Shown here: piece after piece, positions 35,256 through 37,390 of the stretch
Position numbering within the stretch: the stretch's first letter is position 1
Layout: each line of letters begins with the position of its first letter
DNA from: Eledone cirrhosa
Lineage: Eukaryota
DNA length: 64,000 nucleotides
Direction: 5' to 3'
Assembly (NCBI GenBank): GCA_964016885.1
Contig: OZ024762.1
Span: 1,054,001 to 1,118,000, forward strand
Notes under the pieces: generated by a model
Database searches by the model: none
Seen by the model: only the letters and a program-made list of their open reading frames with translations
Told to the model about the DNA's origin: nothing
Position numbers and translations under genes: made by a program

Positions 35256-37390
35256 GTGTGTGTGTGTGTGTAGAAGGTGAGTAATATTGTAGAACAATAA
35301 AACTATGCATATATCAGATAAGTAGCACTCAACAGTTGGTAGAACTGGAGTATATATAATAATAAAGAAGAAATTAAAAGATGGTTAAAAGAGTTGTTTA
35401 CAGGAAAGTGCTAAGTCTACATATGACAGAAATATAAGTGTTAAAACTTATATTTCTGTCATAAGTAGACTTAACACTTTCCTGTAAACAAGTGCTATTA
35501 TGCCTCATCACGTTACCTTATTTTATCTGATGAGAACACAATTTTTGTCCCAGGATGATTTTGTATTCGAAATGCGCATAATAAAAAATATGGAACTCTT
35601 TTAACCACCTTTTAATTTCTTCTTTATTATATATATTAATATATCAACATCATCATCGTTTAACGTCTATCTTCCACACTAGCATGGGTTTAGACGGGAA
35701 TTGTCCCACGTGAGACAAGATTGGTTGTCTTGCTTGTATAGGATTATCTGGCAGGTTTTCTACGGCTGGATGCCCTTCCTAACACGAAGCACGTTTACAG
35801 TGTGGACTGGGAGGTTTTTACCGTGACACCTATACGACCTCATTTATTCAGGATATATATATATATATATATATGTATGTATATATATATATGTATGTAT
35901 ACAGAGAGAGAAAGAGAGAGAGATTCTATATACTATACTGTATCTTGAAACATAAAAACACATTTCTTATATCAGCTTCGTTAGAGTACACACACACAAT
36001 TAGAGTACACAGGCATATATATATACATGTGTGTGTACTATAATGACACTATAGTATATATATATAACTACACCATTACTGGTAATGGTAATTAACAAAG
36101 CAACAGATGAAGTCAACACAAGAAACCCAGGGTGGAATTTAAATACAAACATACTGAAACCAACACCACAAGGTACCCTATACAACATTCTAATGATTCG
36201 GCCAGTAAATTACCCTAAACAACTTCTATATCAACCCCTGGAAAGATAAAGGGCAAAGTCGACCCCAGTAAATTACCCTAAACAACTTCTATATCAACCC
36301 CTGGAAAGATAAAGGGCAAAGTTGACCCCAGTAAATTACCCTAAACAACTTCTATATCAACCCCTGGAAAGATAAAGGGCAAAGTTGACCCCAGTAAATT
36401 ACCCTAAACAACTTCTATATCAACCCCTGGAAAGATAAAGGGCAAAGTTGAGACCCGACAGGATTTGAACTCAGACTGCAAGGATCTAGAAACAGGCATT
36501 TCACGGCATTTCAAAGTATTTCACCAGATGATCCCCAACTTCTGCTAAATAGCCACCAAAGTGAGTTATCATTTTCATATAAACTAGCAGAAGAACTGCC
36601 CCCACTTGGCAGTTTTTTGCTAGTATATGTAGTGTATATATTGATATTTTACGAAAATATATATGTATGTTGACATTTGAAAGTTTTAACAGAAGTCATG
36701 AAATAAGCAATACATTATATATAACATTATTTATGTTTCACCCTTTAGCATTTATATAACTCTATATTTCTTATATTTTCATGGTAAAGGCTTTATCTCT
36801 CCAAATATCTCACATAATATCAAATCTATGAGATTTTGATATTATTTATTTTCAGAACATTACTTTAAGATCAGTTAATCAAAGGGTTAATCAAGCGCTA
36901 AGAAATTTAGTAGAAAAATTACATAATATTCATTCATTATTTATTCAAATTCCTCCAACTTATTTTAATAACATGATGTAAAATAATAAACTGGACACAG
37001 TCTCGCGGTTCTGCAATCATTATATAGGAGATTGCTAAACAAAATGTGTTTACACTTGATTGCCTTTCCTAACATTGGTTGCAGATAGAGTGCCGAGTTT
37101 TATTGAACCCCCAGTAGTGTGTAATGTAGAATCTAAACACGGCTAGTAGTATATTTTGTGAATCACTATTGTAGAGACTGATAGCGGCTGATTTTGGTTA
37201 CTCTCATATTGTGGAGGAACAAAAGGTACGCAAAGAAATATGAAAATTTGCTGTGTCAGCTATGAAGAGAGAGAGAGAGAGAGAATTTGTAAGTAAATCA
37301 TACGAAAGTGTATGAATGAAAATAAACACCTACCTCTTTTTCAAGCAAAGAGTCAATGTGGGTTGAGGCAAGGTTGAACTTCCAAAACAT
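10571..37390 (-). CDS. PPP6R3: Serine/threonine-protein phosphatase 6 regulatory subunit (SAPS domain; PPP6R3-like), spliced, 983 aa with microexon
   Basis: 27 phase-consistent GT-AG exons totalling 2952 nt; starts [23 protein letters not shown], contains [63 protein letters not shown] and ends KNGPV, all characteristic of PPP6R/SAPS proteins. Confidence 0.96.
10710..11735 (+). repeat. 48-bp minisatellite (~21 copies) expanded from a SINE/LINE-tail segment
   Basis: Unit CACTGTAAAGTGGTCATGTAGGTGACATGACAAAAAGTACCCAGTACT runs directly into the retroposon tail (11735-11900); the same unit occurs in 1-2 copies at ~37720, 55570, 56770. Confidence 0.93.
12135..13668. repeat. 51-54-bp minisatellite (~29 copies)
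   Basis: Unit CCAACCACTTTACAG(AG)TGTTGTTGTGGCC(T)CTGACACAACAGAAGAACCCTCA with no unique spacers. Confidence 0.93.
13708..14028 (-). CDS. PPP6R3: PPP6R coding exon 26
   Basis: [19 protein letters not shown]...[11 protein letters not shown]-rich low-complexity segment. Confidence 0.87.
15565..16092. repeat. 30-bp minisatellite (~17 copies)
   Basis: Unit GATATAACTTGTAACAGATGTTAACTGGGT. Confidence 0.93.
16381..16425 (-). CDS. PPP6R3: PPP6R coding exon 25 (45 nt)
   Basis: long pyrimidine tract..aataaag|[14 protein letters not shown]|gtgagt; phase 2-2. Confidence 0.72.
17407..17565 (-). CDS. PPP6R3: PPP6R coding exon 24
   Basis: [52 protein letters not shown]. Confidence 0.8.
17695..17930 (-). 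mobile_element. decayed RTE-clade LINE fragment
   Basis: With frameshifts, the minus strand reads [51 protein letters not shown], typical of the RTE ORF after the RT domain; a related copy lies on + at ~38502-38790. Confidence 0.7.
18136..18223 (-). CDS. PPP6R3: PPP6R coding exon 23
   Basis: [28 protein letters not shown]; phases 1 to 2 fit. Confidence 0.8.
18593..18666 (-). CDS. PPP6R3: PPP6R coding exon 22
   Basis: [24 protein letters not shown]. Confidence 0.87.
19129..19261 (-). CDS. PPP6R3: PPP6R coding exon 21
   Basis: [43 protein letters not shown]. Confidence 0.88.
19748..19884 (-). CDS. PPP6R3: PPP6R coding exon 20
   Basis: [29 protein letters not shown]...MDVDTTE. Confidence 0.88.
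19912..20340. repeat. purine-rich (GA)n-GGTAGTGAGATA compound repeat
   Basis: Tandem GAGAGAGAGGGGTAGTGAGATA; forms a long pyrimidine tract on the sense strand upstream of exon 20. Confidence 0.88.
20553..20686 (-). CDS. PPP6R3: PPP6R coding exon 19
   Basis: [44 protein letters not shown]. Confidence 0.93.
21388..21448 (-). CDS. PPP6R3: PPP6R coding exon 18
   Basis: [20 protein letters not shown]. Confidence 0.88.
21789..21942. repeat. 42-bp tandem repeat (~3.5 copies)
   Basis: Unit AACCAAGGTAGTACCCCAGTATGGTCGCAATTAGATCGATTA. Confidence 0.85.
22012..22106 (-). CDS. PPP6R3: PPP6R coding exon 17
   Basis: [31 protein letters not shown]. Confidence 0.93.
24201..24218 (-). CDS. PPP6R3: PPP6R putative 18-nt cassette microexon (KPNYSQ)
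   Basis: ttttttttccag|AAACCCAATTACTCTCAA|gtaagt; phase 0-0 matching the flanking exons. Confidence 0.7.
24790..25470. repeat. compound minisatellite with higher-order periodicity
   Basis: Three subunit types built on GACAGATTG(G/A)GGTTA alternate in a recurring order. Confidence 0.88.
25561..25650 (-). CDS. PPP6R3: PPP6R coding exon 15
   Basis: [30 protein letters not shown]. Confidence 0.92.
26042..26093 (-). ncRNA. minimal type I hammerhead ribozyme motif
   Basis: TTTATTTGCC-CTGATGA-GTCCT-TAAT-AGGAC-GAAA-CATTG-TT-GGCTAATAAA: intact core, 5-bp stem II, 9 of 10 pairs in stem I. Confidence 0.8.
26263..26348 (-). CDS. PPP6R3: PPP6R coding exon 14
   Basis: [28 protein letters not shown]. Confidence 0.92.
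26905..27023 (-). CDS. PPP6R3: PPP6R coding exon 13
   Basis: [39 protein letters not shown]. Confidence 0.94.
27341..27405 (-). CDS. PPP6R3: PPP6R coding exon 12
   Basis: [21 protein letters not shown]. Confidence 0.92.
27632..27757 (-). CDS. PPP6R3: PPP6R coding exon 11
   Basis: [42 protein letters not shown]. Confidence 0.94.
27808..28216 (+). repeat. ~37-bp minisatellite (~11 copies) expanded inside a family A SINE
   Basis: Unit GGGGTGGATAAAATAAAGTACCGGTAATGTACTG flanked by SINE body sequence on both sides. Confidence 0.9.
28488..28646 (-). CDS. PPP6R3: PPP6R coding exon 10
   Basis: [53 protein letters not shown]. Confidence 0.93.
28889..29018 (-). CDS. PPP6R3: PPP6R coding exon 9
   Basis: [10 protein letters not shown]...[18 protein letters not shown]. 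Confidence 0.92.
29891..30233 (-). repeat. 88-bp tandem repeat (~4 copies) of a tRNA-like SINE head
   Basis: Minus strand GTGTGGCCCAGTGGTGAGGGTGTTGGACTT..GGGTTT(A/G)ATTCCTGGGCTGGGT repeated at 88-nt spacing. Confidence 0.8.
30312..30422 (-). CDS. PPP6R3: PPP6R coding exon 8
   Basis: [36 protein letters not shown]. Confidence 0.9.
31014..31126 (-). CDS. PPP6R3: PPP6R coding exon 7
   Basis: [37 protein letters not shown]. Confidence 0.92.
31701..31766 (-). CDS. PPP6R3: PPP6R coding exon 6
   Basis: [22 protein letters not shown]. Confidence 0.92.
31949..32128 (+). mobile_element. tRNA-derived SINE, family A, near full length
   Basis: TGGCAGTATCGG (A-box-like), GAGTTCAAATCC (B-box) and the family body. 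Confidence 0.7.
32446..33338. mobile_element. MITE-like element containing a 31-bp minisatellite (~25 copies, 32470-33254)
   Basis: Inverted ends AAATTCCATTATAACAAAATT / AATTTCGTTATAACGGAATTTCACTG-TA; internal unit CCATTTGTTTCAATCCCCGGGGTAATACACT. Confidence 0.75.
33496..33633 (-). CDS. PPP6R3: PPP6R coding exon 5
   Basis: [46 protein letters not shown]. Confidence 0.94.
34050..34236 (-). CDS. PPP6R3: PPP6R coding exon 4
   Basis: [13 protein letters not shown]...[24 protein letters not shown]. Confidence 0.94.
34470..34556 (-). CDS. PPP6R3: PPP6R coding exon 3
   Basis: [28 protein letters not shown]. Confidence 0.92.
35102..35181 (-). CDS. PPP6R3: PPP6R coding exon 2
   Basis: [26 protein letters not shown]. 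Confidence 0.93.
35521..35586 (+). ncRNA. minimal type I hammerhead ribozyme motif
   Basis: TTTTAT-CTGATGA-GAACACAA-(19 nt)-TTGTATTC-GAAA-TGCGCA-TA-ATAAAA; palindromic stem III ATGCGCAT. Confidence 0.72.
36202..36452. repeat. 63-bp tandem repeat (4 copies) at the end of a SINE
   Basis: Unit CCAGTAAATTACCCTAAACAACTTCTATATCAACCCCTGGAAAGATAAAGGGCAAAGTTGACC. Confidence 0.85.
37334..37390 (-). CDS. PPP6R3: PPP6R coding exon 1
   Basis: [19 protein letters not shown]|gtaggt; acceptor 11 nt before ATG (exon starts 37401). Confidence 0.93.

What the first reader, a model, noticed from the sequence alone, without database searches (positions are those of the whole stretch)
35356..35636. Third hammerhead nested in an inverted-repeat mini-element with a long internal hairpin
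Seen: outer inverted repeats (~35356-35393 and ~35594-35633), an inner near-perfect hairpin (~35396-35489) and a + strand hammerhead (35521-35586, stem III ATGCGCAT, triplet AUA). Known: Penelope-like elements often carry partially inverted LTRs containing hammerheads. Inference: a ~280-bp non-autonomous ribozyme-bearing retroelement, antisense to PPP6R.
Basis: partly seen in the sequence, partly recalled or inferred. Interest (0 to 1): 0.7.

Follow-up and report, generated by a model that had tools for sequence, protein, structure and literature searches.

The report
Folded-back Penelope retroelement end with hammerhead
This hairpin is a single, partly deleted insertion of two back-to-back copies of the end of a Penelope-like jumping gene, and the predicted self-cutting RNA motif in it belongs to that common element, so it is an ordinary remnant of a known kind and not a mini-element family of its own.

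Summary
The inverted repeats, the hairpin and the hammerhead motif are real and at the stated places, but they are not a ~280-bp mini-element family. The unit runs 35270-35635. It is two head-to-head copies of the 3' end of a reverse transcriptase/GIY-YIG retroelement whose protein fits the Hydra clade of Penelope-like elements by motif. One arm carries an 81-nt tail; a 106-nt deletion removed that arm's hammerhead, which creates the nested look. Both junctions occur once in the 3.0-Gb genome, whereas the element end is abundant (191 and 10,984 exact hits for two subfamilies). The type I hammerhead (CUGAUGA, GAAA, palindromic stem III, AUA, predicted cut after 35580) is conserved across subfamilies, but Rfam misses it, compensatory covariation is weak and cleavage is untested. 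It lies antisense in the first coding intron of a PPP6R/SAPS gene. Inverted copy, one-sided tail and hammerhead are all published for Penelope-like elements, and this scan reported the same layout on other DNA. Residual interest: fold-back hot spots at self-complementary sites and arms that share private variants suggest one template copied twice.

The parts
35270..35635 (.). Whole insertion, 366 bp: two head-to-head 5'-truncated copies of the 3' end of a Penelope-like element, between (TA)n/(TG)n on the left and TA-rich sequence on the right; no target-site duplication discerned
35270..35350 (-).
   Evidence: matches natural copy L032 at 94%; tail length 81 in 64 of 68 measured tails
35327..35351 (-). 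Predicted small bulged hairpin at the start of the tail, next to where tail-less arms end
   Evidence: fold z -1.75; 64 of 85 tails keep all 8 pairs, subfamily changes fall only in loop and bulge
35351..35395 (-). Last 45 nt of the left arm (outer inverted repeat, left arm 35359-35395)
35394..35395 (.). Scar of a 106-nt deletion (2-nt TT overlap) that removed the left arm's hammerhead
   Evidence: 106 nt in 7 of 8 natural copies, 108 in one; junction found once in the genome
35394..35448 (-). Inner part of the left arm (left side of the long hairpin)
35437..35448 (.). Fold-back junction at a native imperfect 12-nt palindrome centred on TTAA
   Evidence: 12-nt overlap of the two arms; junction found once in the genome
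35437..35635 (+). Right arm: tail-less 3' end of the element, sense to its ORF (outer inverted repeat, right arm 35594-35630)
   Evidence: 95% over 202 nt to L035
35521..35586 (+). Type I hammerhead motif: stem I 35521-35526/35581-35586, CUGAUGA 35527-35533, stem II 35534-35568, GAAA 35569-35572, palindromic stem III 35572-35579, predicted cleavage after 35580
35102..35181 (-). Host PPP6R/SAPS-type gene, second coding exon; the insertion starts 88 nt from it, inside the intron
   Evidence: read; PF04499 in later exons
37334..37390 (-). Host PPP6R/SAPS-type gene, first coding exon

Best explanation
This is a one-off insertion of two head-to-head copies of the hammerhead-bearing 3' end of a Penelope-like retrotransposon, likely of the Hydra clade, one arm of which later lost 106 bases including its hammerhead. 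Shown: the arms, the tail, the deletion, the link to the RT/endonuclease ORF, and the uniqueness of both junctions. Inferred mechanism: the element's protein cut TA-rich DNA and copied its RNA from two start sites 81 nt apart, one from each target end; both copies stopped after about 200-280 nt and were joined at a short self-complementary site. The hammerhead is the parent element's RNA-processing motif, predicted to need a second copy (palindromic stem III) or protein help; in this copy it is probably inactive and is a passenger in the intron.
For: ORF linkage: 3' regions lead back to ORFs with YRDD and a C-terminal nuclease-like domain, core 756-1012 nt after the stop; homologues of ~700 aa carry PF00078, PF01541 and PF26215. 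Hydra motifs RW(K/I), DKT, CxCx5C, CxxC..E..N..CxH as defined in PMC8557442. One-sided tail in 46 of 53 outward-facing pairs (both 3, neither 4). Junction positions differ widely between pairs; the window's two occur once each. Arms of one palindrome share variants that differ between loci with the same junction. Hammerhead columns differ between five subfamilies in 1 of 35 core/stem I/stem III columns against 26 of 96 others, Fisher p 0.0013. Literature: inverted 5'-truncated copy plus tail (PMC8557442, PMC3846280), two RT start sites bounding the tail and extension of both strands (PMC11167929), palindromic helix III and motifs 100-700 bp apart on opposite strands (PMC4209133).
Against: Direct Pfam scans of the family's own ORF pieces gave no RT or GIY-YIG hit; the domain names come from homologues and motifs. 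No tree against curated Hydra proteins was built. Rfam finds no hammerhead. Compensatory covariation is weak: 1 of 24 pairs changes on both sides, reached by 264 of 500 shuffles. The hammerhead fold is not the predicted minimum: +8.2 kcal/mol alone, +15.5 with upstream sequence. The sequence downstream of the hammerhead is also well conserved. Gene conversion between arms could mimic a shared template. 20 of the loci behind the 53 pairs were picked because they held a minus/plus pair.
Confidence: 0.88

Rival explanations
1. A non-autonomous palindromic mini-retroelement (retrozyme-like) that is transcribed, self-cleaves and re-inserts as a unit.
For: Some junctions do recur in the family: 747 exact 28-nt palindromes centred on CATATG in the sister subfamily and 6 palindromes among 7 hits sharing one asymmetric junction in the window's subfamily.
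Against: The window's own junctions are unique. Palindromes with the same junction belong to different sequence variants, each shared by both arms, as expected of repeated origin at a hot spot. No tandem array: 3 same-strand pairs among 171 distinct ends, 767-3673 bp apart.
Confidence: 0.05
2. A MITE: the outer repeats are TIRs of a DNA transposon inserted at TA, and the hammerhead is a chance or captured motif.
For: 37-bp near-perfect terminal inverted repeats in TA-rich flanks.
Against: The repeat is one arm's last 45 nt, not a terminus: it continues as an 81-nt tail on one side only. Most copies carry it next to retroelement sequence, with inner length from 79 to 4440 bp.
Confidence: 0.02
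3. The inversion arose after insertion by DNA fold-back repair of a single truncated copy, not during reverse transcription.
For: The junction sits on a native imperfect palindrome, and both arms deriving from one template fits fold-back synthesis too.
Against: A fixed 81-nt one-sided tail in 46 of 53 pairs is a transposition signature; random repair would not end the second arm at the same place each time.
Confidence: 0.05
4. This copy has been co-opted as an antisense ribozyme or RNA hairpin regulating the PPP6R-type gene, the deletion freeing one hammerhead and removing the sense-strand one.
For: The deleted hammerhead is the one that would be sense to the pre-mRNA, and the remaining one lies unpaired between the repeats; the hairpin is 88 nt from an exon.
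Against: Another hammerhead motif lies sense in a later intron (26083-26059). This copy has decayed: T>A at 35587 cuts stem I from 8 to 6 bp, and a 2-nt deletion upstream goes with a stronger competing fold.
Confidence: 0.03

Closest known systems
Hydra clade of C-terminal-endonuclease Penelope-like elements (Craig et al. 2021, PMC8557442; abstract, passages, section 11, supplement part 2 and supplement search hits read), including Hydra-1_Obim and Penelope-13_HM
   Same: RT then C-terminal nuclease; DKT, CxCx5C linker, CxxC and CxH around E and N; (TA)n targets; sense hammerhead near the 3' end; Penelope-13_HM is listed with a 5'-truncated inverted copy.
   Different: A different family from Hydra-1_Obim by eye (other hammerhead sequence, other N-terminus; no alignment run). 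Unit about 3.67 kb against under 3 kb; RWI for RWK; N-rich insert of about 70 aa before the linker; tail 81 nt against 30-40; stem II plus loop 35-36 nt, longer than in the Hydra rows of their File S2.
Inverted pLTR plus tail insertions of Penelope elements (Arkhipova et al. 2013, PMC3846280, passages; Frangieh et al. 2024, PMC11167929, parts 1-2 of 4)
   Same: Head-to-head inverted ends, tail on one arm, palindromes at the inversion junction, microhomology deletions, AT-rich targets, a stem-loop at the RT start region.
   Different: Here both copies are cut to about 200 nt so no coding sequence is left; the hammerhead lies in a non-coding 3' region, not over the ORF start.
Type I hammerheads of metazoan PLEs (Cervera and de la Pena 2014, PMC4209133, parts 1-2 of 4)
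   Same: Short palindromic helix III, long helix II, G10.1-C11.1 in this subfamily, mostly single motifs from truncated PLEs, some pairs on opposite strands.
   Different: [quoted passage not shown]
Non-LTR retrozymes (bioRxiv 10.64898/2026.07.22.740005, part 1 of 5)
   Same: Non-coding, type I hammerhead, derived from PLE ends.
   Different: Defined there as tandem repeats with a hammerhead in each unit; this is a single inverted pair with one hammerhead.

Membership tests
EN+ Penelope-like elements | Single ORF with RT and a GIY-YIG-type endonuclease linked to this end | tested here: met
   ORFs of 647-715 aa with YRDD upstream of the end; homologues with PF00078 and PF01541; the family's own pieces gave no Pfam hit
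EN+ Penelope-like elements | Inverted 5'-truncated copy with outward-facing 3' ends | tested here: met
   53 outward-facing pairs, 2 facing, 3 direct in the fetched loci, partly selected for such pairs
EN+ Penelope-like elements | Tail extension on one end only | tested here: met
   46 of 53 pairs; 81 nt rather than 30-40; window left arm only
EN+ Penelope-like elements | Partial tandem (pLTR-ORF-pLTR) copy | tested here: met
   L055: direct ends 3673 bp apart around the ORF; one example
Hydra clade | DKG modified to DKT | tested here: met
   SDKTN in L055 and L060
Hydra clade | CxCX5C linker | tested here: met
   CNCPVRTKC in L055, CNCPIRTNC in L058
Hydra clade | N-terminal RWK motif | tested here: inconclusive
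   RWI in L031 and L055 where relatives have RWK/RWR
Hydra clade | No CCHH motif; CxxC and CxH flank the conserved E and N | tested here: met
   one Cys only between the two Tyr boxes; CNLC..E..N..CxH present
Hydra clade | Insertion into (TA)n | tested here: met
   90 of 96 tail-less ends reach (TA)3 within 45 nt, part of which is the element's own; tail ends are followed mostly by AT or AC repeats
Hydra clade | Generally under 3 kb | tested here: not met
   unit about 3.67 kb; a tendency in the paper, not a strict criterion
Hydra clade | Phylogenetic placement of the RT | not tested
   curated reference proteins were not available as stored sequences; no tree built
Type I hammerhead ribozyme | Core CUGANGA, GAAA, NUH with stems I-III in type I order | tested here: met
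   25 of 32 ORF-linked ends; 96.7% of cells paired against 31-61% for slid controls
Type I hammerhead ribozyme | Compensatory covariation of stems | tested here: inconclusive
   1 of 24 pairs changes on both sides; shuffles reach this in 264 of 500
Type I hammerhead ribozyme | Match to an Rfam hammerhead model | tested here: not met
   none among 19 matches at E up to 10
Type I hammerhead ribozyme | Self-cleavage | not testable with these tools
   needs an in vitro assay
Non-LTR retrozymes | Tandem units each with a hammerhead | tested here: not met
   single motif in the window; no short tandem arrays in the fetched loci
Non-autonomous mini-element or MITE family | Many copies with the same internal structure and symmetric termini | tested here: not met
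   both junctions unique; ends asymmetric

The most novel reading that the evidence does not exclude
This family records Penelope insertion chemistry at scale: one RNA is copied twice from two start sites 81 nt apart, the inner one marked by a conserved bulged hairpin, and the two copies are joined where the sequence is self-complementary, giving at least 747 near-identical ~0.4-kb palindromes at one CATATG site that look like a MITE family but arise independently each time.
Probability: 0.4. Interest if true: 0.5.

Novelty: new member of a known kind. Interest (0 to 1): 0.22.

Why it matters
The locus itself is an ordinary decayed insertion. It matters in two modest ways. For annotation, such stubs look like MITEs or retrozymes and will be misfiled unless the one-sided tail is checked. 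For mechanism, how Penelope-like elements make their inverted ends is unresolved, and this family offers thousands of insertions with a fixed tail, fold-back hot spots and arm-shared variants with which models can be tested by computation. It also adds over ten thousand predicted hammerheads, of a form Rfam missed at this locus, to one genome.

Tried and rejected
Rfam scans of the window and the region gave only microsatellite and generic hairpin matches below gathering score; of the window scan the best 150 of 211 rows were shown. Pfam on the family's own ORF pieces was blank. The protein atlas gave no answer. Sequencing runs: no RNA holder listed. The three listed runs are contig sets of one sample; all 29 bins were covered, no piece spans the stretch, and they may be the assembly's own sample, so they are no independent support. 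Naiad clade was considered from recall and rejected because the nuclease is C-terminal. An apparent overlap of the inverted end with the ORF start in L042 was rejected as an antisense frame fused at an inversion junction. The dimer energy (-18.7 against -15.4 kcal/mol for two monomers) is a rough additive estimate and is not used as evidence. Junction overlaps in 18 other fold-backs were mixed (1-3 nt overlaps in 7, apparent inserts in 11, some of them alignment artefacts), so no general microhomology statistic is claimed. Paper searches for octopus+Penelope+hammerhead, cephalopod+retrozyme and Penelope-like+Hydra clade+non-autonomous+palindrom listed no description of this family; Repbase and Dfam were not searchable, so it may be catalogued there. 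Place and sequence look-ups of earlier findings were empty.
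Full report
Observation. All three features are present. The outer inverted repeat is 35359-35395 / 35594-35630 (37 nt, 97%) and the inner hairpin 35394-35491 (49-nt arms, 94%). The region folds far better than shuffles (z -17.6). The hammerhead boxes are CTGATGA at 35527 and GAAA ending at 35572, followed by the palindromic stem III, the triplet AUA (H17 = 35580) and a 6-bp stem I. Rfam lists no hammerhead there. The host gene is a SAPS-domain gene on the minus strand, with its first coding exon at 37390-37334 and the next at 35181-35102. The motif is therefore intronic and antisense, as stated. The name PPP6R for this family is recalled. That the animal is an octopod is my recall plus earlier scan notes, not tested here.

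What the unit is. A search of the own 3.0-Gb genome gave 1695 candidates, of which 40 were scored. Most top matches cover only query 88-287, that is 35437-35636, once. Their sequence continues upstream through a pyrimidine-rich stretch into decayed ORFs with YRDD and a C-terminal nuclease-like domain; the core lies 756-1012 nt after the stop codon in four copies measured. Downstream many copies continue by a fixed tail, 81 nt in 64 of 68 measured. The reverse complement of that tail lies at 35270-35350. The window thus maps as: tail and last 45 nt of a left arm on the minus strand, a 106-nt deletion with a TT overlap, the rest of the left arm to 35448, and a right arm 35437-35635 without tail. 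The arms overlap by 12 nt at a native imperfect palindrome. The 'outer repeat' and 'inner hairpin' are two surviving parts of one long palindrome, and the hammerhead sits unpaired only because its mirror image was deleted. The arms differ at 1 of 37 and 2 of 43 positions, so the insertion is not very recent.

Is the composite a family? No. Each junction matches once in the genome with up to one mismatch. The element end is abundant: an exact 31-mer of the window's subfamily has 191 hits and a 32-mer of sister subfamilies (about 70% amino-acid identity) has 10,984. In the fetched loci 53 outward-facing pairs have anchor distances from 79 to 4440 bp; 46 carry the tail on exactly one arm, 3 on both, 4 on neither by the pattern used. 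Twenty loci were chosen for holding such pairs. Junctions can recur: a perfect palindrome centred on CATATG occurs 747 times, and an asymmetric junction occurs in 6 palindromes among 7 hits, always with the tail on the shorter arm. In these, the two arms of one locus share variants that other loci with the same junction lack; 6 of 10 CATATG loci have arms differing at 0-1 of 150 positions, one at 6, and three are truncated or rearranged. This fits repeated origin at a hot spot from one template, though gene conversion between arms is not excluded.

Parent element. A 715-aa ORF found 203 homologues at E up to 1e-20 among 7999 candidates; many carry PF26215 and single ones PF00078 or PF01541. 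The alignment shows DKT, CxCx5C, no CCHH, and CxxC and CxH around E and N, with RWI in place of RWK. These are the Hydra-clade marks of Craig et al. 2021 (PMC8557442), whose supplement lists an octopus member, (TA)n targets, sense hammerheads near the 3' end, and one family with an inverted 5'-truncated copy. This family looks distinct from Hydra-1_Obim and is longer (3673-bp tandem unit in L055), with an N-rich insert. No tree was built, and the family's own ORF pieces had no Pfam hit.

Is the hammerhead real? In 31 loci picked by protein similarity and anchored on a motif outside the ribozyme, 25 of 32 ends keep both boxes at normal spacing; six misses carry point changes in the boxes and one an internal deletion. 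Across five subfamilies (27 copies, groups of 2-13) 1 of 35 core, stem I and stem III columns changes against 26 of 96 others (p 0.0013, columns not independent). The closing pair of stem II shifts G-C, G-U, A-U, and position 7 varies, but double-sided changes do not exceed shuffles. So support is conservation and anatomy, not covariation. The monomer fold is disfavoured in family copies (+6.1 and +6.2 kcal/mol) and more so here (+8.2; +15.5 with upstream bases), where stem I has lost two pairs; this energy model ignores tertiary contacts. Published metazoan PLE hammerheads have palindromic helix III, work weakly and as dimers (PMC4209133), or need the element's protein and are dispensable for insertion in vitro (PMC11167929).

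Mechanism. Shown: anatomy, linkage, tail asymmetry, unique junctions. From the literature: a PLE protein cuts and extends both strands of AT-rich DNA and starts at two internal RNA sites that bound the tail (PMC11167929); palindromes at inversion junctions were noted in rotifer elements and read as self-priming (PMC3846280). Inferred: two short cDNAs from the two start sites were joined at a self-complementary site, and one arm later lost 106 nt. A bulged hairpin at the tail start keeps all 8 pairs in 64 of 85 tails, and subfamily differences fall at 4 of 9 loop or bulge positions and none of 16 stem positions, without compensatory changes; this lead came from earlier scan notes and may mark the inner start site.

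Novelty and verdict. The layout, tail and hammerhead are all published; four notes of this scan on other pieces of this genome and four on other genomes describe the same kind of stub. The family itself was not found in the searched papers, but repeat databases were not searchable and bioRxiv supplements were not read. Verdict: new member of a known kind, interest 0.22.

Noticed in passing
window 26083-26059 (minus): Second hammerhead-like motif of another family (stem I GGC/GCC plus extension, fold z -2.68), sense to the host pre-mRNA inside a later intron, next to (TA)n.
   Followed up: partly
window 41998-41962 (minus): Third hammerhead-like motif (stem I CTGC/GCAG, TATATA stem III, fold z -3.68); near-identical copies occur in L033, L040, L062 and L064, once as an inverted pair.
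   Followed up: partly
G000, e.g. L164-L173, L144, L146: 747 exact palindromes centred on one CATATG site of the sister subfamily; some have identical arms over 150 nt, so parts of the family are very young.
   Followed up: partly
L157-L160, L162, L163: Six palindromes share one asymmetric junction with only a 1-nt overlap, the tail always on the shorter arm; unexplained.
   Followed up: partly
L041:6008-8472 (minus): A second, more divergent RT/nuclease element with DKT and CxCx5C motifs.
   Followed up: no
L046, L057, L061, L062, L065, L066, L069, L072, L073: Several further hammerhead-like families with palindromic stem III (TATGTA, TATATA, CTAG types) lie near the fetched copies.
   Followed up: no
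window 35637-35840: A very high-copy repeat directly abuts the right arm (highest contig depth); from recall it resembles an octopus SINE.
   Followed up: no
L055 ORF, columns about 660-735 of alignment A2: Asn-rich insert of about 70 aa before the CxCx5C linker, absent from most homologues; N-rich inserts are described in rotifer Penelope elements (PMC3846280).
   Followed up: no
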